A DNA stretch of 64,000 nt from Desulfobacterales bacterium (GCA_963674755.2 CAXXVS010000002.1:1920001-1984000), one strand, 5' to 3'. Positions 3,326-60,044 are shown, numbered from the stretch's first letter. A program made the numbers and translations. Notes: generated by a model not told the origin, from the sequence alone.

Positions 3326-4480
3326 ATGCAAAAACGTATTCCCGCAGTCCTGATGCGGGGTGGCACCAGCAAAGCATTGTTCTTCCATGACAACCACCTG
3401 CCCCAGGATCCCGCTATCCGCAGCCGGGTCGTTCTGGCGGCTTTCGGCAGCCCGGATCCTAACCGGCGCCAGATCGACGGATTGGGCGGCGGTGTCAGCA
3501 CCACCAGCAAGATGGCCATCATCAGCCCTTCTCCATCGCCGGATTACGATGTGGTCTACAATTTCGGGCAGGTTTCCATCGACCGGCCCATCGTGGATTA
3601 CAAAAGCAACTGCGGCAATATTTCTTCGGCCGTGGGACCCTTCGCGGTGGATGAAGGTCTGGTCAAGGTGGTGGAACCCGTCACCCGGGTCCGCATCCAC
3701 CAGTTGAACACCAACAAGCTGATCACGGCCGAGGTTCCGGTCAAGGACGGCCGCTTCGACGAAACGGGCGACTACAGCATCGCCGGGGTACCGGGGACCC
3801 ATGCGCGTATCACCCTGCGGTTTGCCGACCCGGGCGGGGCCGTCACCGGCCGGCTTTTCCCCACCGGCCATCGCCGGGATGACATCGAGGTGCCGGGCCA
3901 CGGCCGGGTCACCATCACCATCATCGACGCCGCCAACCCGGTGGTTCTGGTGCGAGCGGAGGCCATCGGGCTGACCGGCACCGAGATCGACGAAATCGAA
4001 GCCACTCCGGACATCAAACGCACCCTGGAAGCCATCCGCTGCCAGGCCGCCGTCATGACCGGGCTGGCCGCCAGCACGGAGGAGGCCACCCAGCGCAGCC
4101 AGGCCGTACCCAAGATCGCCTTCGTGGCGCCCCCCCGGTCGTACACCGACACGGGCGGACGCACGGTGGCCGCCGAGGCCATCGACATCACGGCCCGCAT
4201 CATGTCCATGGGCACCCTGCACCGCTCCTACGCCGTCAGCGGGGGCATCGCCACGGCCGGTGCCGCCATGATTCCCGACACGGTGGCCTACGATCTCCTG
4301 ACGGATGCAGCCCGCCAGCGGGATCTGCTGCGCATCGGACATCCCGGGGGCATCATCGACCTGGGCGCCGCCATCGACCTGGAAGGAAACGACTGCACCT
4401 ACCGCGAGGCGATCGTCGGCCGCACCGCCCGGCGCCTCATGGAAGGCTACGCCCTGGTTCCGGAAGAGCACTTCGGATAG
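3326..4480 (+). CDS. PrpF family isomerase (methyl-aconitate/aconitate-type)
   Basis: MRGGTSK, QIDGLGGG.STTSK, NCGNIS, SMGTLH, GRTARRLMEG; GGAGG RBS. Confidence 0.92.
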   Translation: MQKRIPAVLMRGGTSKALFFHDNHLPQDPAIRSRVVLAAFGSPDPNRRQIDGLGGGVSTTSKMAIISPSPSPDYDVVYNFGQVSIDRPIVDYKSNCGNISSAVGPFAVDEGLVKVVEPVTRVRIHQLNTNKLITAEVPVKDGRFDETGDYSIAGVPGTHARITLRFADPGGAVTGRLFPTGHRRDDIEVPGHGRVTITIIDAANPVVLVRAEAIGLTGTEIDEIEATPDIKRTLEAIRCQAAVMTGLAASTEEATQRSQAVPKIAFVAPPRSYTDTGGRTVAAEAIDITARIMSMGTLHRSYAVSGGIATAGAAMIPDTVAYDLLTDAARQRDLLRIGHPGGIIDLGAAIDLEGNDCTYREAIVGRTARRLMEGYALVPEEHFG

Positions 4481-51771: not shown

Positions 51772-51848
<77 letters not shown>

Positions 51849-51857
51849 TCAAACAAA

Positions 51858-51896
51858 ACAGGCACTTACAAGCAATTGTGAGTGCCTTGTTTTTTG
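51858..51896 (+). terminator. Hairpin/terminator after tRNA
   Basis: AGGCACTTACAA-GCAA-TTGTGAGTGCCT followed by a T-tract. Confidence 0.6.
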
Positions 51897-51910
51897 CCTT
51901 AAAATTCCGA

Positions 51911-52134
51911 TTTCTCACCATATTTCCCACCACGAGAAAGCTCCGTCAAATAAGGGCTTGCCGCTTCGGTGGCCTGGTGGGTCGCCTTTGAACCTGGAAA
52001 GGCGCGCCGATCCGGCCGCCATTGGTCCGCGCTTTGCTATTGGCTTATGGGTGGGTTAAAAGGTGGGAAAACGTGGTGGGAAAAGTGACCTACCATCGCC
52101 CCGCGTTCGCCTTCTGGCATTGTTTGGCGATCCG
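51911..52134. mobile_element. Collapsed integrative-element remnant (arm-type repeats plus 3' end of a xis-like gene)
   Basis: TTTCTCACC/TTTCCCACCACG (51911-51934) inverted to GGTGGGAAA/CGTGGTGGGAAA (52062-52083); 52090-52134 encodes RIAKQCQKANAGRW* on the minus strand. Confidence 0.55.
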
Positions 52135-52152
52135 CATTTTAGCTGTCAGACC

Positions 52153-52197
52153 TTCCTAATCCATGTGCCGCAAGTTCGATTCTTGCCGGGGGCACCA
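52153..52197 (+). mobile_element. tRNA-Arg(CCT) 3' fragment, att core site
   Basis: Starts at anticodon loop TTCCTAA, has T-arm GCAAG-TTCGATT-CTTGC and ends GGGGGCACCA; no 5' half; tandem TTTACCCCCAT/TTTGCCCCCAT at 52253-52274. Confidence 0.75.
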
Positions 52198-52522
52198 ATT
52201 AATTCAACCACTTAAAAACTTAGATTTATCACCTTACAGAAAATTATTTCTTTTTACCCCCATTTTGCCCCCATAAAAGCATGGCAACAAAACCGGCCCG
52301 CTATGGTCATCGATCGCGGCATAAAGAATGGGGACCAGGCCCGCCGGCCACCCCCCGGTATCGGTTTTGCTTTTGAGTTGGGGATCAGGCTTGAAGCGGT
52401 GTATACCACCGTACTAAATTAGTGTTTCTCTCAAATTGGGATCTTGCTTATAAGTCACCAACACTATATATAGAGCCATCCCGCATTTTAATCACCATAT
52501 TTTGAGCCAGCTCAAATAACAC

Positions 52523-52550
52523 TTGACAGATTTAACCTACAGGTTAAATT
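52523..52550 (+). promoter_or_regulatory. TA promoter with palindromic operator
   Basis: TTGACA (52523) and TAAATT (52545) overlapped by the perfect palindrome ATTTAACCT-AC-AGGTTAAAT (52530-52549). Confidence 0.65.
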
Positions 52551-52551
52551 C

Positions 52552-52947
52552 ATGAAAATAGCTGAAATTGGTTCTGGCGATGGGTATAGTCTATATGCCC
52601 TCGAAATTAATGATAAATACCCCGTCAAAGAGTACCTTGAAACTTTAGATGAAAAAAGCCTAAAGCAATTTTTAGCTCTGTTCGAACATATATACAGCCA
52701 GGGGCCGCCAACAAACGAACGCAAATTTAGGCGTATATTTGATAAAATTTATGAGCTGAAAATTTATAGTGGAGGACGTATCCTTTGTTTTATCCCTGAT
52801 GAATCACTACCAAAATCACTAATTTTAACACATGGGTTTCCTAAACCCCCTAAAAAAACTTTGCAACGTGAGGCAAAAAGAACAAATAAATATCGATCAG
52901 ATTTCATCGAATACGTAAATAAAAACAAAAATATTATTGTTGAATAA
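52552..52947 (+). CDS. RelE/HigB-superfamily (Gp49-like) toxin
   Basis: PVKEYL, KIYELK, RILCF, LILTHGFPK; basic; precedes an HTH antitoxin. Confidence 0.85.
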   Translation: MKIAEIGSGDGYSLYALEINDKYPVKEYLETLDEKSLKQFLALFEHIYSQGPPTNERKFRRIFDKIYELKIYSGGRILCFIPDESLPKSLILTHGFPKPPKKTLQREAKRTNKYRSDFIEYVNKNKNIIVE

Positions 52948-52963
52948 TCCACGGAGAAGAACC

Positions 52964-53371
52964 ATGGCAAACAAATCAAATTGGTTTAAGGAAAAGCTAA
53001 ATGAGTTCCAAAACGATTTTGATTTCCGCCTTGAAAAATTAATATTGGATGTTACCGAAAAAATTTCAAAGCGGATCAAACAAAAGAAGCTTTCGCGCGT
53101 TAAATTTGCCGAAAAACTGAAAGTATCACCGCCAGCAGTGACAAAAATTCTTGATGGAAATTCTAACTTTACTCTTAGGACGTTATTATCATTAGCGGAT
53201 GCATTAGAGTTGAATCTAAAGATAGATTTCCAAGAAACCGTAACTGTTATGCAGGCAGGAGTAGAGGCGGCATCAACCTATACTTACCTACCAGCAAATA
53301 GTTATGCTGTTGTTGTAAACCAGGCTAATGATATTGCATACGGAACCTCAGTTTTTGAAAAAGCTGCTTAG
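52964..53371 (+). CDS. HigA-like XRE-HTH antitoxin with C-terminal extension
   Basis: LSRVKFAEKLKVS..VTKILDGNSNFTLRTL..ALEL; about 45-aa tail ending EKAA; GGAG RBS. Confidence 0.85.
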   Translation: MANKSNWFKEKLNEFQNDFDFRLEKLILDVTEKISKRIKQKKLSRVKFAEKLKVSPPAVTKILDGNSNFTLRTLLSLADALELNLKIDFQETVTVMQAGVEAASTYTYLPANSYAVVVNQANDIAYGTSVFEKAA

Positions 53372-53395
53372 TTAGATATTTTATAGGAGATAAGT

Positions 53396-53815
53396 ATGAA
53401 GTTAAGCGCTGAAAATAAAAAACTAATAGTAGATGAAGTTGATTTTGTCACAAAAAAAATGAACGCAGAGGAAGATCCCTCAAAAAAACTTTATTACTTC
53501 AGCGCCATCCCGGGTATGATACAGCGTGTTTATAATATAGATTATGATAACGACCTTGTGTTTGCACATTTCGTATTACAAGCGGTTTTTACTGTAATTA
53601 ATGAACGAATTGTTGCGCTGCGGCAAAAAGGGGATGGAAATGTTCAATTGAGCCTCGAACAATTTGAAAAGTTAGAACAATTATCCGTTGAATTTGGTAT
53701 AAAGTTAAAGGAAAACAAGTCAGTTGATACTGTTCTTAAAAAATTTGTATTATTATTAACGTCTACTACTGGAAACGGATATTATTTAATGCAAAAAGGC
53801 TTCTTAAAAATATGA
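53396..53815 (+). CDS. Hypothetical protein, third gene of the TA operon
   Basis: 139 aa, AGGAG RBS, 24 bp after the antitoxin stop, same AT-rich composition; no recognised family. Confidence 0.8.
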   Translation: MKLSAENKKLIVDEVDFVTKKMNAEEDPSKKLYYFSAIPGMIQRVYNIDYDNDLVFAHFVLQAVFTVINERIVALRQKGDGNVQLSLEQFEKLEQLSVEFGIKLKENKSVDTVLKKFVLLLTSTTGNGYYLMQKGFLKI

Positions 53816-53879
53816 TATTGAAGCCCTAATTGTTATATATCAAATCCATTCTGTGTCGCTGATCAAAGATCCGTAGGTC

Positions 53880-54050
53880 CTACCATCGCCTTGCGTTCGC
53901 ATCTTTGCATTGTTCTGCGATCCGACCGGCACGCCACTTATCAATCATTTCGGTTTCACTTATCCAGGACCCGCCGATCTTGGCGGCCGGCAACCCGTCG
54001 TTTCGGATCAATAGTTTGACCGTCGTTTCGGAATAGCCGACATACACACA
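53880..54050 (-). pseudogene. 5'-truncated excisionase-like (HTH_17) gene
   Basis: CVYVGYSETTVKLLIRNDGLPAAKIGGSWISETEMIDKWR...NARRW*; in-frame stop just upstream, next to a REP-like repeat. Confidence 0.65.
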
Positions 54051-54058
54051 AGAAGTCT

Positions 54059-54237
54059 AATGGGGTCAAGTCTGCCCATGACCCAATTAAATTCCAAGAT
54101 GAGTCATGAGCAGATTTGACCCCAAGAACATTTTGGTGATCATCGATAGGATAATTTGCTTATGCAACCAGTCCCACTTATTTGCCTATGAAGGATCAAA
54201 AACGTCGGAATGCGTCATGGGCAGACTTGACCCCATT
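54059..54237. repeat. REP-like repeats: inverted doublet 54059-54124 and single copy 54211-54237
   Basis: Unit (AAT)GGGGTCAAGTCTGCCCATGACCCA, also present at 57403-57429 and 58082-58106. Confidence 0.8.
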
Positions 54238-54242
54238 TTCCC

Positions 54243-54290
54243 ACGCTCCACTCGGACTCGCTGAAGCTCGCCGGTGAACTTAAACGTTAT
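54243..54290 (+). other. Partial integron attC site (L''-L'-R'), R' split by the intron
   Basis: ACGCTCCACTCGG-ACTCGCTGAAGCTCG-CCGGTGAACTT-AAAC-GTTAT; joined to 56550 it gives GTTATGT; R'' replaced by a REP-like repeat. Confidence 0.7.
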
Positions 54291-56549
54291 TCGCGACACG
54301 AAGTCGCGTATTTATATGTGATTTCATATTGTTAGATGAAGTCACCCGGCGTGTCCCCGCCGGTATCCTAGGGAGGCGTGCTACCGTTGCGCTGATGACG
54401 GGGTGCGAAGCCCTCCTGACAATGTACCGAATTGGGAAGAAGCCGTGAGGTGGACTCCCCTCTGGGAATCCCGCCCGGTTAAGGGCTAGGATGGGGCAAT
54501 ATGGCGAGAGTAGGCAAAGGACTTTACGCGCCGTCAGTGAGCACGGGCCTACCGGGATTTACAGGTCTACGACGCGTTTCTTAGCGGTTACGCGTGTTGG
54601 AGAGGTTGCAGGAGACTAACGTGCCTGCACGGGACCCCATTTCCTTCCGGCGTCCAAGTTCCGCCTAAGTTGCCCGTTAAAGTAAATACGTGGAACGTGG
54701 CAACCCCGTCCCTTCGCCCAGGGCAATCCATGGGCAGGCATTACCGTAAGGCGTGTTGCTGGAGTGGCGGGCTGGAGAGGTTGAAAGAAGCGAAGGCCTC
54801 CGGGTAAGCCGGGGGATAGGGCCTGCAACACGGCCCAACGCTAAATCTGGAAGCTTCTGAGCAGACAGAAAACGGCGTGCTGACGTTCAACTGGTATCTT
54901 CTTGCGAGAGAATCCGGAGAACCTTTGAAGATAGGAAAGCGAAAGACGGCCGCCATGGCTGGCGCCCCTGTCGACACCGCCTTACAGTGGCATTCCATCA
55001 ATTGGAAGGCTGCCCAAAGGCATGTCAGAAGGCTGCAGATACGCATCGCAAAGGCTGTGCAGGAAAGAAGATGGGGCAAGGTGCGATCCTTGCAGAACAT
55101 TCTGACCCATTCGTTCTACGCCAAGCTGCTGGCTGTGAAACGAGTGACTTCCAACAAGGGGAAAAATACTCCTGGTGTTGACGGCGTCCTGTGGAAAGGC
55201 GTCCGAGCCAAACGACAGGCTGTTTTCAGCCTGCGCAGACGTGGTTACAGGCCGATGCCGCTGAGAAGGATTTATATTCCGAAGAAAAACGGCAAGAAAC
55301 GCCCTTTGTCAATACCAACTTTAACCGACAGAGCGATGCAGGCATTGTACAAGCTGGCACTGGCGCCGGTGGCGGAAACCACTGCAGATCGAAATTCCTA
55401 TGGATTTCGAGAGGGGCGCTCCTGCGCCGATGCCGTACAAGCCGGATTCAACGCACTGAACAAGCCTAATTCGGCAACATGGGTATTGGAGGCGGATATC
55501 GCCGGTTGTTTCGATAACATATCATCAGGCTGGATGCTTGAAAACATCGTAATGGATAAAGTGGTTCTTCGCAAGTGGCTTACGGCAGGATATGTGGAAA
55601 ACGGCATCCTTTATCCTTCTCGAAAAGGAACACCCCAGGGTGGTATAATCAGCCCGACGCTTTCCAATATGACACTCGACGGTTTGGAGGAGGTCGTCCG
55701 CGGTGCAGTCCCCCGTCGCAATCGTGTCAATTTCATTCGATATGCTGACGATTTCATTGTCACAGGCAAATCGAAACGCCTGCTGGAAAGGACGGTTCAG
55801 CCAGCAGTGGAAAGATTCCTGGCCGAACGCGGACTGACCCTATCAAGGGGAAAGACTGTTATCAGCCATATTCGAGACGGATTTACGTTCCTCGGGCAAA
55901 CTTTTCGAAAGCGTGGTAGGAAACTGCACATCAAACCATCTATTGAGGGAGTTCACGCCCTTAGAAGAAAAGTGGGAGCGTTAATCAGAAAATACGTCAG
56001 CGCGCCGATGGAGGCCCTGATCAAGGAGTTGAACCAAACGCTCCGCGGTTGGGCAAACTACCACCGCCATGTGGTATCATCGGAAGTCTTCAGCCGCATC
56101 GACACATATGTATTTGAACAACTATGGCGCATGCTCCGGAAGCGACATCCGAGGAAATCCAAACAGTGGCTATTCAAGAGATACTGGACAGCCGGTGAAA
56201 GGAAACATATCTTCGCTGTCAAATCCAAGACCGGGAAAGGCGTAGTCAAAGTCTATCAGGTTGTCCGAATATGCTCCATAGGTATTAGGAGACATATCAA
56301 AATCAAAGCGGCCGCAAATCCGTATTTACCTGAGTACTCCAGATACTTTTGGCAACGCAGGAACAATAGGGAGAGCAAGCTGTTGCCGGTAGTCTCGGCA
56401 AGAGAATTACGAGCAACGGTTGCATAGGAAGTTAACAGCCGGGCCGCCCACCAAGGGTTGCCTTGAAGATGCTTGAGCCGTGTGATGGGAAACTATCATG
56501 CACGGTTCTTAGGGGGGAAAGAGGCTGCAAAGCCTCTGACCTACCCGGT
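54291..56549 (+). mobile_element. Group II intron (IIB/chloroplast-like class), about 2.26 kb
   Basis: 5' TCGCGACACGAAGTCGC; domain V GAGCCGTGTGATGGGAAACTATCATGCACGGTTC (56475-56508); domain VI ending CCTACCCGGT; internal RT. Confidence 0.85.
54955..56427 (+). CDS. ltrA: Group II intron reverse transcriptase/maturase, no HNH endonuclease
   Basis: W.SINW, NKGKNTPGVDG, RPLSIPT..DR, SYGFR, DIAGCFD, GTPQGG.ISP, RYADDF, FLG, LRGWANY. Start uncertain (54877 or 54955). Confidence 0.95.
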   Translation: MAGAPVDTALQWHSINWKAAQRHVRRLQIRIAKAVQERRWGKVRSLQNILTHSFYAKLLAVKRVTSNKGKNTPGVDGVLWKGVRAKRQAVFSLRRRGYRPMPLRRIYIPKKNGKKRPLSIPTLTDRAMQALYKLALAPVAETTADRNSYGFREGRSCADAVQAGFNALNKPNSATWVLEADIAGCFDNISSGWMLENIVMDKVVLRKWLTAGYVENGILYPSRKGTPQGGIISPTLSNMTLDGLEEVVRGAVPRRNRVNFIRYADDFIVTGKSKRLLERTVQPAVERFLAERGLTLSRGKTVISHIRDGFTFLGQTFRKRGRKLHIKPSIEGVHALRRKVGALIRKYVSAPMEALIKELNQTLRGWANYHRHVVSSEVFSRIDTYVFEQLWRMLRKRHPRKSKQWLFKRYWTAGERKHIFAVKSKTGKGVVKVYQVVRICSIGIRRHIKIKAAANPYLPEYSRYFWQRRNNRESKLLPVVSARELRATVA

Positions 56550-56639
56550 GTGAAACCAAAACAAACGGTCGGAAATGGGCAGGCTCTCTCCATAGTTGCT
56601 GAGAGCATCAATCAAATGATTGATAGCGAGGAGAATGGC

Positions 56640-57402: not shown

Positions 57403-57429
57403 AATGGGGTCAAGTCTGCCCATGACCCA
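57403..57429 (+). repeat. REP-like repeat, left arm of the doublet interrupted by IS200
   Basis: AATGGGGTCAAGTCTGCCCATGACCCA, identical to 54059-54085. Confidence 0.8.
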
Positions 57430-58067
57430 GTCATATACCTCCGGCAAAGCCGGAGGCTTGAAAGATGTGAACCGCTCAAAGCGGTTATTTAATGGGCCAC
57501 CTCAAAGGTGGCGGTGCTTTACTTGAATAAATTCAATTGATCGAGCCGACGGTCCTCTTTCTCTTGAGCCCGGATATATTCTCGGACCGTTTTTTCATCT
57601 CGACCAACGGTAGAAACATGATATCCACGAGCCCAAAAATGGGCGCCTGTGAAATTCTTTTTCTGACCCAGATAATTGCGGGCCACATGGGTGGCACTTT
57701 TACCCTTGATATACCCAATCACCTGAGCCACCGCATATTTCGGAGGGATTGACACCAGCATGTGCACATGGTCTGACATCATATGCCCTTCAAGTATTTC
57801 GCACTCCCGGTGCTGGGCCAATTCCTTGAATACTTGGCCAAGATACTTCCGCAATTGGCCGTACAGTAATTTTTTGCGGTACTTGGGAATCCATACCACA
57901 TGGTATTTGCATTCCCATACGCTGTGGCTTAAACTTGAAATGTCGTTCATGAAAGCCTCTCCTTTGTGAATTTTGAGCGGTTCACATCCGGAGGGGCTTT
58001 CATTTGCTCCCGTAAATGTCAAACTCTGGTGAGTCCCCCGGCATAGCCGGGGGTTTACCTAATGGCA
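57430..58067 (-). mobile_element. IS200-family element (tnpA only, about 638 bp)
   Basis: Subterminal hairpins CCTCCGGCAAAGCCGGAGG and CCCCCGGCATAGCCGGGGG; ends defined against the empty REP doublet at 54059-54124 (2-bp ambiguity). Confidence 0.88.
57519..57950 (-). CDS. tnpA: IS200/IS605 Y1 (HUH) transposase
   Basis: HSVWECKYHVVWIPKYR, DHVHML, KGKS, FWARGY, EYIRAQ; AGGAG RBS. Confidence 0.96.
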   Translation of the reverse strand: MNDISSLSHSVWECKYHVVWIPKYRKKLLYGQLRKYLGQVFKELAQHRECEILEGHMMSDHVHMLVSIPPKYAVAQVIGYIKGKSATHVARNYLGQKKNFTGAHFWARGYHVSTVGRDEKTVREYIRAQEKEDRRLDQLNLFK

Positions 58068-58081
58068 ATTAAATTTCAAGA

Positions 58082-58106
58082 TGAGTCATAAGCAGACTTG
58101 ACCCCA
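58082..58106 (-). repeat. REP-like repeat, right arm of the doublet
   Basis: TGAGTCATAAGCAGACTTGACCCCA preceded by ATTAAATTTCAAGA, as in the intact doublet. Confidence 0.8.
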
Positions 58107-58335: not shown

Positions 58336-58416
58336 TACTCAGACAAAGCCAAACCAGTTGCGAAACTGGGACGGAAAGCCACGGATCTCAGCTACGAGAC
58401 GGCCGGGTTGCCTGGA
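58336..58416 (+). ncRNA. Cyclic di-GMP-I (GEMM-I) riboswitch
   Basis: GCCAAACCAGTT-GCGA-AACTGGGACGGAAAGCC-ACGGATCTC..GAGACGGCCGGGTTGCC. Confidence 0.88.
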
Positions 58417-58583: not shown

Positions 58584-60044
58584 ATGTTTAAACGATCCTT
58601 GCTTGCGTTGTGTATAATGATATTGATACCGGTCTGTTCACAGGCCGAGCCCACCTTCAAATCCGCCATGGTAAAGATCTTTACGGTCAGCAGTTTCCCC
58701 GACTATGCAACCCCGTGGAACAAGGAGGGACCTCAGTCGTTCAGCGGCTCGGGGGTGGTGATCGATGGCAACCGGATTCTGACCAATGCCCATGTGGTAA
58801 GCTATGAAACCTTTCTGCAGGTAAGATCCCATGGCCAGGCCAAAAAATATGATGCCTATGTCCTGGCCGTTTCCCACGAAGCGGATTTGGCGGTGCTGGG
58901 CGTCAAGGACCCGGCCTTTTTCGATGGAATCGAGCCGTTGGAGATCGGCGGGCTGCCGGAATTGCAGGAACCGGTGGTCGTGTGCGGCTTCCCCACCGGT
59001 GGCGATACCATGAGCATGACCACGGGGGTCGTATCGCGCATAGAAAACCAGACCTATATTCACAGTTTAATGGATATGCTGGCCATTCAGGTCGATGCCG
59101 CGATCAATCCGGGCAACAGCGGCGGCCCGGCCCTTTCCGACGATGACCTCATCGTCGGGGTGGCCATGCAAACCCAGGAACGGGCCAGCAACATTTCCTA
59201 TCTCATTCCGACGCCAGTCATCCAGCATTTCTTGACGGATATCGATGACGGCCATCTCGATGGCGTGCCCGAATTGGGCATTTATTGCCAACCCACCGAA
59301 AATAACGCTCTCAAGGAAAAACTGGGGATGTCCCCTGACATGACAGGGGTGCTGGTCAATCAAACCGTTCCGGATACCGCTGCCGCTGCAATTCTAAACG
59401 AAGGGGATGTCATTTTGAAAATCGATGAATTCGATGTGGCTTCCGACGGCACCATTGAATTCCGCCCCCAGGAACGAACCATTTTCAATTTTGCGGCCCA
59501 ACGCAAACAAATTGGCGAATCGGTTACGTTTGGAATTCTCAGAGACGGCAACATCCGAAGTGTCTCCATGATCCTGGAGCATAAGATCGGAACACATCGT
59601 CTTGTAAGAATCGAGAACGATAAACAACCCACCTACTATATCTACGGAGGGATGGTTTTTAATCCCCTGACCATCAATTATCTGGAGTGCTGGGGGGATA
59701 GTTGGTGGGATGAGGCCCCCAAGGCGCTGCTATCCCATTTACAGCGGAACTGGAAAAAGCCTGGGCAGGAAGAAATCGTTGTCTTGAACAGGGTGCTTCC
59801 GATTGAGGAAAATGTGGGCTATCATGATATCAATGACGTGCAAGTCGTCTCGATCAACGGCAAAAATATCACACGCATGAAAGACGTGGTCGAAATCATA
59901 GACCATAATACAACCGAGTACGTCGATATCTTGACCGCCAAGGGGTCGCACATCATTCTGAAAAGCAAAGATCGTATGAACGCCCAAAAGTCCATAAAAA
60001 CAATCTACGATATCAAATCAGACATCTCGGGCGATCTTCTTTAG
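58584..60044 (+). CDS. HtrA/DegP-family serine protease (trypsin plus PDZ domains)
   Basis: Signal peptide, GSG..ILTNAHVV, DLA, DAAINPGNSGGP, PDZ regions. Confidence 0.93.
   Translation: MFKRSLLALCIMILIPVCSQAEPTFKSAMVKIFTVSSFPDYATPWNKEGPQSFSGSGVVIDGNRILTNAHVVSYETFLQVRSHGQAKKYDAYVLAVSHEADLAVLGVKDPAFFDGIEPLEIGGLPELQEPVVVCGFPTGGDTMSMTTGVVSRIENQTYIHSLMDMLAIQVDAAINPGNSGGPALSDDDLIVGVAMQTQERASNISYLIPTPVIQHFLTDIDDGHLDGVPELGIYCQPTENNALKEKLGMSPDMTGVLVNQTVPDTAAAAILNEGDVILKIDEFDVASDGTIEFRPQERTIFNFAAQRKQIGESVTFGILRDGNIRSVSMILEHKIGTHRLVRIENDKQPTYYIYGGMVFNPLTINYLECWGDSWWDEAPKALLSHLQRNWKKPGQEEIVVLNRVLPIEENVGYHDINDVQVVSINGKNITRMKDVVEIIDHNTTEYVDILTAKGSHIILKSKDRMNAQKSIKTIYDIKSDISGDLL

What the first reader, a model, noticed from the sequence alone, without database searches (positions are those of the whole stretch)
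54243..56551. Group IIB-type intron apparently programmed to home into the attC R' core on the top strand
Seen: the intron splits an attC R' box (AAACGTTAT | GT, giving GTTATGT when spliced out). The domain I hairpin TGCAGG-AGACTAACGTG-CCTGCA (54607-54629) exposes CTAACGT, the exact complement of ACGTTAG, the canonical attC R' core; the present site ACGTTAT matches 6 of 7. Known: described attC-targeting introns are class IIC and insert in the bottom strand, antisense to cassettes. This one has a full 34-nt domain V with AGC triad, a chloroplast-like RT without endonuclease, and is sense to the cassette. Inference: an independent intron lineage targeting integron arrays by EBS1 pairing; insertion would disable attC recombination and fix the cassette, while splicing keeps the array transcript intact.
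Basis: partly seen in the sequence, partly recalled or inferred. Interest (0 to 1): 0.85.

Follow-up and report, generated by a model that had tools for sequence, protein, structure and literature searches.

The report
Group II intron aimed at integron attC
This is an intact self-splicing mobile intron of the chloroplast-like type whose guide loop matches the conserved end of integron recombination sites; here it sits in a broken-off remnant of such a site, and one intron of this kind was already described in 2021.

Summary
The intron is real, but it runs 54291-56549 (+), not 54243-56551. It looks intact. It has a 34-nt domain V with the AGC triad, a bulged branch A, and an RT/maturase ORF with YADD and no endonuclease domain. 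The RT is far closer to PDB 6ME0 (E 1e-165) than to a IIC RT (1e-38).

Its unusual ends, 5'-UCGCG...GU-3', are compensated across relatives: U1 goes with a penultimate G in 15 of 15, and G1 with a penultimate A in 33 of 33.

The loop at 54613-54623 is EBS1. In relatives it co-varies with the last 6-7 exon bases.

An attC covariance model built only from this genome's own integron array ends exactly at the intron's 5' junction in 14 of 23 related junctions. Every hit with E<0.1 lies on the intron's strand.

The window copy is not in a complete attC: the model gives no hit there and the flank folds at only -2.9 kcal/mol. But the 37 nt upstream of the intron are identical to the 3' arm of complete attCs in two metagenome cassette arrays. 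The target is therefore a 5'-truncated attC relic, GTTAT|GT, 355 kb from the genome's real integron.

The premise that only IIC, bottom-strand introns are known is outdated. Sonbol & Siam 2021 described UHB.I2, a CL1/IIB1 intron in sense orientation next to an attC with UUGCG..GU ends. This is a new member of that kind. The clade-wide EBS1-to-R' rule was not found in three searches of the held library.

The parts
54254..54290 (+). Remnant of an attC 3' arm (L' plus the first 5 nt of the R' core, GTTAT). This is the 5' exon carrying IBS1 (ACGTTAT, 54284-54290).
   Evidence: These 37 nt are identical to the 3' arm of complete attCs in L113 and, in large part, L112. The attC model hits those sites but not the window. 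The sequence is unique in the genome.
54291..56549 (+). Full-length group II intron, 2259 nt, with ends 5'-UCGCG...GGU-3'.
   Evidence: Rfam hits. Boundaries come from four copies in one MAG and from other relatives, from the cassette rule, and from the intron-less joint in run X3. There is a 1-nt T ambiguity at the joint, resolved by homology of the 3' ends.
54607..54629 (+). Domain I hairpin carrying EBS1. The stems are 54607-54612 and 54624-54629, the loop is 54613-54623, and EBS1 CUAACGU is 54616-54622.
   Evidence: Sequence. The loop co-varies with the exon ends of relatives at a constant loop offset of 3.
54877..56427 (+). Intron-encoded RT/maturase. The open frame runs from a GTG at 54877, and the first ATG is at 54955. 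It has YADD (FIRYADDFIV) and no endonuclease domain.
   Evidence: Translation. Pfam RVT_N, RVT_1, GIIM. PDB 6ME0 chain C at E 1.2e-165, GsI-IIC RT at 1.2e-38, LtrA at 4.7e-36.
56475..56508 (+). Domain V, 34 nt, with the AGC catalytic triad.
   Evidence: Alignment to Rfam RF00029.
56511..56549 (+). Domain VI with the bulged branch-point A at 56543, 7 nt from the 3' splice site.
   Evidence: Alignment to Rfam RF00029. The 3' ends of relatives are aligned.
56550..56551 (+). First two bases of the 3' exon (GT). They complete the R'-type word GTTAT|GT.
   Evidence: The same word GTTATGT is the R' core of L113's attC and of two attCs in this genome's own array.

Best explanation
The region 54291-56549 (+) is an intact, probably still mobile, endonuclease-less group II intron of the chloroplast-like (CL1/IIB1) kind. 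It belongs to a clade that homes into the top strand of integron recombination sites.

Shown:
- Its EBS1 loop (CUAACGU) is complementary to 5'-ACGTTAG. That sequence is the base before the attC R' core plus the core's first five bases.
- Relatives carry matching or compensating loops.
- Relatives lie 4-6 nt into the R' core (mostly GTTRR|RY or GTTRRR|Y) of attC sites, always in the cassette orientation.
- In this window the target is the R' end (GTTAT|GT) of an orphan attC that has lost its 5' half.

Inferred:
- The excised intron RNA reverse-splices into single-stranded or hairpin-extruded top-strand DNA, guided mainly by the 6-7 bp EBS1-IBS1 helix. No conserved IBS2 is seen.
- Lacking an endonuclease, it uses a nascent DNA strand at a replication fork as primer.
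- Splicing restores the transcript across the site.
- The unusual ends, U1 and a penultimate G, replace the usual G1 and penultimate A as a compensating pair.
For: Intactness:
- Ribozyme and ORF are intact.
- The RT is closest to PDB 6ME0 (E 1e-165), against 1e-38 for a IIC RT and 5e-36 for the IIA RT LtrA.

EBS1 covariation, loop/exon:
- L025 CGAACG/CGTTCG
- L026 and L045 CTAACG/CGTTAG
- L018 TTAACGT/ACGTTAA
- L017 CATAAC/GTTATG
- L028 CCTAAC/GTTAGG
- The window pairs in 6 of 7.

attC association:
- Model R2 was built from 13 attCs of this genome's own array.
- It ends at the intron's 5' junction in 8 of 13 junctions of the window's 13-row clade.
- It does so in 6 of 10 further junctions, one of them weak at E 0.08-0.3.
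- It does so in 0 of 27 junctions of other clades.
- All hits with E<0.1 are on the intron's strand. Further attCs lie up- and downstream on the same strand.
- The R'' of the next attC equals the complement of the ligated R' in 3 of 3 testable cases, exactly in L064 and L037 and with one mismatch in L027.
- An integron integrase over the curated cut-off is present in 5 of 5 relatives' genomes tested. In L023 it ends 84 nt before the intron.
- CGTTA[GT] occurs 2505 times in this genome but only 20 times in the array's top strand. IBS1 alone would therefore rarely land in an attC.

Ends: U1 with penultimate G in 15 of 15, G1 with penultimate A in 33 of 33.

Window site:
- 37 nt are identical to the attC 3' arm in L112 and L113.
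- Run X3 holds an intron-less joint at exactly these boundaries.
- Run X6 holds a copy about 96% identical, preceded by an arm that, by eye, resembles this genome's attC a9.
Against: - The window site itself is not a recognisable attC. The copy that was handed to me therefore does not show attC homing directly.
- 9 of 23 related junctions have no attC hit. These include 2 of 5 copies in one MAG, although one of those two lies 84 nt after intI and may be in attI.
- Exon position -1 (U) mismatches EBS1 (C) in the window, L015 and L019.
- EBS2/IBS2 and EBS3/IBS3 could not be identified. Five copies of one intron share no IBS2.
- The attC model comes from one genome's array and its E-values are rough.
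- The tree is FastTree, midpoint-rooted, with no reference classes.
- The counts include close kin and are not independent.
- The X3 joint rests on one contig at depth 3.3 from a run of unknown kind.
- No splicing or mobility experiment exists.
Confidence: 0.8

Rival explanations
1. The window copy is a chance ectopic retrotransposition into an ordinary intergenic site that happens to match IBS1. It has no link to integrons.
For: No attC model hit at the site. The flank folds weakly. No intI or cassette array in the window. No R'' partner downstream. CGTTA[GT] is common, at 2505 sites.
Against: The 37 nt upstream plus the R' word are identical to the 3' arm of complete attCs in two metagenome arrays, and the attC model recognises those. 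This is far more than a 6-7 nt chance match.
Confidence: 0.1
2. It is a decaying, immobile relic. The non-canonical 5' UCGCG and 3' GU are inactivating mutations.
For: The ends depart from GUGYG...AY. There is only one full copy in the genome, and a 250-nt fragment of a 90-98% identical copy lies in the integron array.
Against: The same ends recur in relatives with 47-83% RT identity, and the first and penultimate bases switch together: 15 of 15 and 33 of 33. UHB.I2 has UUGCG..GU (PMC7923331, section 7). The ORF has no stops and keeps YADD. DV and DVI score above the Rfam threshold. Near-identical copies lie in other contexts in other runs.
Confidence: 0.07
3. It is a member of the known IIC-attC lineage.
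For: It lacks an endonuclease domain, has an RVT_N domain and is associated with attC.
Against: The RT matches a IIC RT only at E 1e-38, against 1e-165 for 6ME0. EBS1 pairs over 6-7 bp rather than 3-4. The intron is in the sense orientation at R', not antisense at R'' (IIC-attC features as given in PMC7923331, section 3).
Confidence: 0.02

Closest known systems
UHB.I2, the group IIB1/CL1 intron in a cassette array of a soda-lake metagenome (Sonbol & Siam 2021, PMC7923331; sections 3, 7, 11, 12 read)
   Same: CL1-type RT without endonuclease. IIB-type RNA. Same orientation as the cassettes. Directly at an attC. Non-canonical ends 5'-U(U/C)GCG...GU-3'.
   Different: The window copy lies in an orphan truncated attC outside any array and starts UCGCG, not UUGCG. 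The paper reports poor exon conservation and no EBS1-to-R' rule. Here the rule, its covariation and the clade-wide attC association are shown.
Group IIC-attC introns (S.ma.I2 type), as summarised in PMC7923331 section 3 and PMC4424553 section 8
   Same: Endonuclease-less introns that use integron attC sites as targets, with little or no IBS2 pairing.
   Different: Those are class C, insert in the bottom strand at R'' (TTGT/T) antisense to the cassettes, and use a 3-4 bp IBS1. This one is CL1/IIB, inserts in the top strand at R' in sense, and uses a 6-7 bp IBS1.
The RT of PDB 6ME0 (recalled, not from a call: the Thermosynechococcus T.el4h group IIB intron RNP)
   Same: Best solved relative of the RT: E 1.2e-165, residues 33-500 aligned to 18-484.
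   Different: No attC association is known to me for that intron (recalled). Its RNA was not compared here.

Membership tests
Group II intron | Domain V with catalytic triad and domain VI with a bulged branch A | tested here: met
   RF00029 at 65.4 bits against a gathering score of 40. DV is 56475-56508 with AGC. The bulged A is at 56543.
Group II intron | Boundary consensus 5'-GUGYG ... AY-3' | tested here: not met
   The ends are UCGCG...GU. The departure is compensated across relatives: U1 with penultimate G in 15 of 15, G1 with penultimate A in 33 of 33. That the first and penultimate bases interact is recalled knowledge.
Group II intron | Intron-encoded RT with YADD and a maturase (X) domain | tested here: met
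   Pfam RVT_1 1.2e-39 and GIIM 4.2e-24. FIRYADDFIV is present in the translation.
Chloroplast-like (CL1) / IIB1 class | RT groups with CL1 reference RTs | tested here: inconclusive
   The RT is closest to the 6ME0 RT (E 1e-165) and far from the IIC and IIA RTs. That 6ME0 is a CL1/IIB1 intron is recalled. No tree with the reference classes was built.
Chloroplast-like (CL1) / IIB1 class | IIB RNA features: EBS1 in a DI hairpin loop, EBS2, and EBS3 in the coordination loop | tested here: inconclusive
   EBS1 was found and co-varies. EBS2/IBS2 were not found. EBS3 was not looked for. Rfam's best DI-DIV model is D1D4-7, and its class is not given.
IIC-attC introns | Class C RT and bottom-strand, antisense insertion at R'' | tested here: not met
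   IIC RT matches only at E 1e-38. All attC hits beside relatives are on the intron's strand, with the intron at R'.
UHB.I2-type IIB intron at attC | Endonuclease-less CL1 RT, sense orientation at an attC, and U-start/GU-end boundaries | tested here: met
   For the window copy itself the attC is only a 3' remnant.
UHB.I2-type IIB intron at attC | Sequence relatedness to UHB.I2 | not tested
   The UHB.I2 sequence was not on hand. Its supplements were not opened.
attC site (the target) | Imperfect palindrome R''-L''...L'-R' of about 55-140 nt | tested here: not met
   No R2 hit at the site. The flank folds at -2.9 kcal/mol. The 5' half is missing when compared with L113.
attC site (the target) | R' core GTTRRRY and homology to bona fide attCs | tested here: met
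   GTTATGT matches 6 of 7 (T at position 5), and real attCs of this genome use the same word. 37 nt are identical to the attC arm of L113. R2 hits L112 1133-1214 at E 1.9e-4 and L113 1186-1242(-) at E 0.005.

The most novel reading that the evidence does not exclude
A whole clade of endonuclease-less CL1/IIB1 introns, found here in at least five phyla, has retargeted EBS1 to the conserved R' core of integron attC sites, and perhaps attI, on the top strand. It has also switched its first and penultimate bases together (G..A to U..G).

The intron enters 4-6 nt 3' of the G of the R' core, while IntI's crossover at G|TT (recalled) lies upstream of it. An occupied attC may therefore stay recombinogenic. 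The intron would then travel as the first part of the downstream cassette, as a retroelement that hitch-hikes on integron cassettes.
Probability: 0.35. Interest if true: 0.75.

Novelty: new member of a known kind. Interest (0 to 1): 0.55.

Why it matters
Integrons spread genes, including resistance genes, as cassettes, and anything that occupies their attC sites can change how cassettes move and are expressed. Until 2021 only class C introns, antisense in the bottom strand, were known there. One sense-oriented IIB intron was then reported, without a targeting rule.

The evidence gathered from this window gives that rule:
- a 6-7 bp EBS1 helix pairs with the R' core;
- the rule holds across a clade and several phyla;
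- the odd intron ends are a compensated pair.

It also shows such an intron surviving in an orphan attC remnant far from the integron.

A sense-oriented, self-splicing insert at R' should be nearly silent for expression of the array. That makes these introns possible passengers of cassettes, and possible programmable tools for attC sites.

Tried and rejected
- A strict RYYYAAC...GTTRRRY plus fold filter found no attC in the integron region. It was too strict and was replaced by eye and then by a covariance model.
- RNAalifold on a MAFFT alignment of 13 attCs gave no structure. The structure was set by hand on 3 sites and the model iterated.
- An empty site was sought in same-genus genomes through the downstream gene. 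Orthologues exist, but their upstream gene is elsewhere in this genome (C3), so there is no synteny and no empty site. A faint likeness of exon 1 to that gene's 3' end was dropped.
- Exon 1 has no other copy in the genome.
- No R'' partner for GTTATGTG lies downstream. The downstream gene is therefore not a cassette.
- EBS2/IBS2 was sought by eye in the DI alignment and nothing convincing was found.
- The hairpin-finder missed EBS1 in most distant relatives, so those were not used.
- The regex for 3' ends failed and mis-set L021/22/23/28. One search was used for those.
- The earlier-findings index had nothing for this genome.
- In run X5 and the small-share runs, only partial or conserved pieces were laid. 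No use was made of them.

Full report
**What is there.**
- Rfam finds a group II intron on the + strand. Group-II-D1D4-7 matches 54345-54486 (89.8 bits) and the DV/DVI model matches 56473-56549 (65.4 bits).
- Between them lies an open frame, 54877-56427, with its first ATG at 54955. It carries RVT_N, RVT_1 and GIIM domains and the YADD motif, and has no endonuclease match.
- Against solved structures the RT matches the maturase of 6ME0 at E 1.2e-165. It matches a IIC RT (GsI-IIC) at 1.2e-38 and the IIA RT LtrA at 4.7e-36.
- That 6ME0 is the T.el4h IIB intron is my recollection and does not come from a call.
- The genome holds one full copy. A 250-nt fragment of a 90-98% identical copy also exists.

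**Boundaries.**
- Four copies of a related intron in one MAG (L021, L022, L023, L028) diverge exactly before GUGCGAC and after ...CCUACCCGAU.
- Aligned to them, the window intron starts UCGCGAC at 54291 and ends ...CCCGGU at 56549.
- U-starting ends (UCGCG, UUGCG, UUGUG) recur in many relatives.
- In three arrays the R'' of the next attC gives the expected uninterrupted R'. That R' fits only if the U belongs to the intron: exactly in L064 and L037, and with one mismatch in L027.
- The first and penultimate bases switch together. U1 goes with G in 15 of 15 and G1 with A in 33 of 33. Many rows are close kin, but the tree needs several independent switches.
- The odd ends therefore look functional and not decayed. 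UHB.I2 in the literature has UUGCG..GU (PMC7923331, section 7).
- In run X3 one contig joins 54273 to 56549 with 15 other letters ending ...ACGTTA. That is an intron-less ...ACGTTAT|GTGAAACC form of a slightly different allele (table 5c).
- That contig has depth 3.3, and the run's kind is unknown. It is either an empty DNA site or a spliced RNA. Either reading confirms the joint.

**EBS1.**
- The hairpin at 54607-54629 has the 11-nt loop AGACTAACGTG.
- In an alignment of domain I from 13 introns the loop changes with the exon:

| Locus | Loop | Exon end |
|---|---|---|
| L025 | CGAACG | CGTTCG |
| L026, L045 | CTAACG | CGTTAG |
| L018 | TTAACGT | ACGTTAA |
| L017 | CATAAC | GTTATG |
| L028 | CCTAAC | GTTAGG |

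- The pairing always starts at loop offset 3.
- GUGCG-type introns sit one base further into the core (GTTRRR|Y) than U-type introns (mostly GTTRR|RY), and their EBS1 is shifted to match.
- The window pairs in 6 of 7. Exon position -1 is U against C, the same as in L015.
- Five copies of one intron share no sequence upstream of IBS1. I found no EBS2/IBS2.

**Integron context in this genome.**
- The genome has a true integron integrase (TIGR02249, 415 bits, cut-off 265) at C2:2339256-2340191(-).
- A cassette array follows on the same strand, roughly C2:2319000-2337300. It shows typical attCs and the R''/R' rule between neighbours.
- I built an attC covariance model from 13 of these sites.
- In the same array, three attCs carry short 5' fragments of a second intron lineage directly after GTTAT or GTTAG. 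The fragment of the window-type intron lies beside one of them.

**Integron context in relatives.**
- The model ends exactly at the intron's 5' junction in L028, L045, L015, L026, L023 (second copy), L018, L025 and L022. That is 8 of 13 junctions in the window's 13-row clade (filters off).
- It also does so in L037, L068, L064, L066 and L056, and weakly in L027. That is 6 of 10 further junctions.
- It does so at 0 of 27 junctions of other clades. Those are 18 at one conserved coding site in Bacillota-type loci, 5 Bacteroidota-type, 2 at a tRNA-like site and 2 others.
- Every hit with E<0.1 is on the intron's strand. More attCs lie on both sides on that strand.
- Integron integrases over the cut-off occur in 5 of 5 relatives' genomes tested.
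- In L023 the integrase gene ends 84 nt before one intron copy. That copy may therefore sit in attI.
- The RT tree was FastTree with 56 rows: the window plus 55 of the 79 loci. L056 was dropped for 16 stops, and near-identical loci were left out. It puts all attC-associated introns in one half, and the window in a 13-row clade with SH-like support 100.
- CGTTA[GT] occurs 2505 times in this genome, only 20 of them in the array's top strand. A 6-nt match alone would not explain 14 of 23 junctions at attCs. Either the hairpin or single-stranded state of attC, or selection, adds to it.

**The window's own site.**
- The model finds no attC at the intron (best E 0.77, elsewhere).
- The flank folds at -2.9 kcal/mol.
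- There is no intI, no array and no downstream R'' partner.
- A scan of metagenome contigs with 22 nt of exon 1 returned two contigs. In these contigs the same sequence is the 3' arm of a complete, uninterrupted attC. L113 reads ACATAAC...GGACTCGCTGAAGCTCGCCGGTGAACTTAAAC-GTTATGT, which is 37 nt plus the R' word identical to the window. L112 is similar, with GTTATGA.
- The attC model hits both sites and further attCs on the same strand.
- The window site is therefore a 5'-truncated attC. Its left part is replaced by sequence that begins with a REP-type repeat.
- It lies 355 kb from the integron.
- Run X6, a seawater metagenome, holds a copy about 96% identical. The arm before it resembles, by eye, attC a9 of this genome's array.

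**Comparison with what is known.**
- IIC-attC introns insert antisense in the bottom strand at R'' with a 3-4 bp IBS1 (PMC7923331 section 3; PMC4424553 section 8, passages).
- Sonbol & Siam 2021 describe one full IIB1/CL1 intron, UHB.I2. It lies in the cassette orientation just after an attC, lacks an endonuclease domain and has UUGCG..GU ends. They note poor exon conservation and only speculate on a role for the hairpin (sections 7, 11, 12 read).
- Three full-text searches found no other paper on IIB or chloroplast-like introns at attC in the held library. Subscription journals are not covered.

**Verdict.**
- The element is a new member of that kind.
- The EBS1-to-R' rule, the clade-wide association and the compensated ends were not found described in the three searches of the held library.

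Noticed in passing
window 57519-58022 (-), repeats at 57403-57432, 58082-58106, 54059-54124, 54211-54237: An IS200-like Y1 transposase gene (Pfam Y1_Tnp, 2e-40) is flanked by inverted 25-30-nt repeats. The same repeat forms a doublet and a single copy just upstream of the intron, and it clusters elsewhere in the genome (C1, C3). This looks like a RAYT with its REP/REPIN family.
   Followed up: partly
window 58339-58416 and 58584-60044: A c-di-GMP-I-GGC riboswitch aptamer (67.7 bits) lies upstream of a trypsin-like/PDZ protease gene.
   Followed up: no
window 51772-54047: A tRNA gene is followed by a Gp49(HigB-like)/HTH pair (52552-53371), a 139-aa ORF with no family, two 46-nt direct repeats (52089 and 53879, 83% alike) and an HTH_17 fragment on the minus strand. 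This looks like the remains of an island next to the tRNA.
   Followed up: no
own genome C2:2319000-2340200 (loci L099, L100): This is an integron whose integrase and cassettes lie on the same strand. Three attCs are occupied, right after GTTAT or GTTAG, by 85 to about 480-nt 5' fragments of a second intron lineage (Rfam D1D4-6). No DV and no RT are present.
   Followed up: partly
L060 (junction 1883) and L063 (junction 1958): In these two gammaproteobacterial relatives the 3' exon holds ...GGTTCGATTCC..., a T-arm-like word. The intron may therefore sit inside a tRNA gene.
   Followed up: no
L061 1924 and 4149: Introns lie in tandem: each 5' end follows directly on the 3' end (...GGCTACTCGAC) of the previous intron.
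   Followed up: no
L029-L044, L051, L070, L074, L078, L079, L087, L088, L091: Eighteen relatives, mostly from Bacillota genomes, all interrupt the same conserved coding site (mostly ...TGG|GUGCGAC, three end ...TAT). This is ordinary gene-site homing in the sister clade.
   Followed up: no
L023 708-1823 and 1907: An integron integrase gene (495 bits) ends 84 nt before an intron copy on the same strand, at ...AAGTTAGA|. The intron may have entered attI.
   Followed up: partly
L015 about 1850-1905 and 4176-4182: The 3' exon begins GCCCAAC, the same word as the R'' of the attC just upstream of the intron. Two attCs may abut there. This is unexplained.
   Followed up: no
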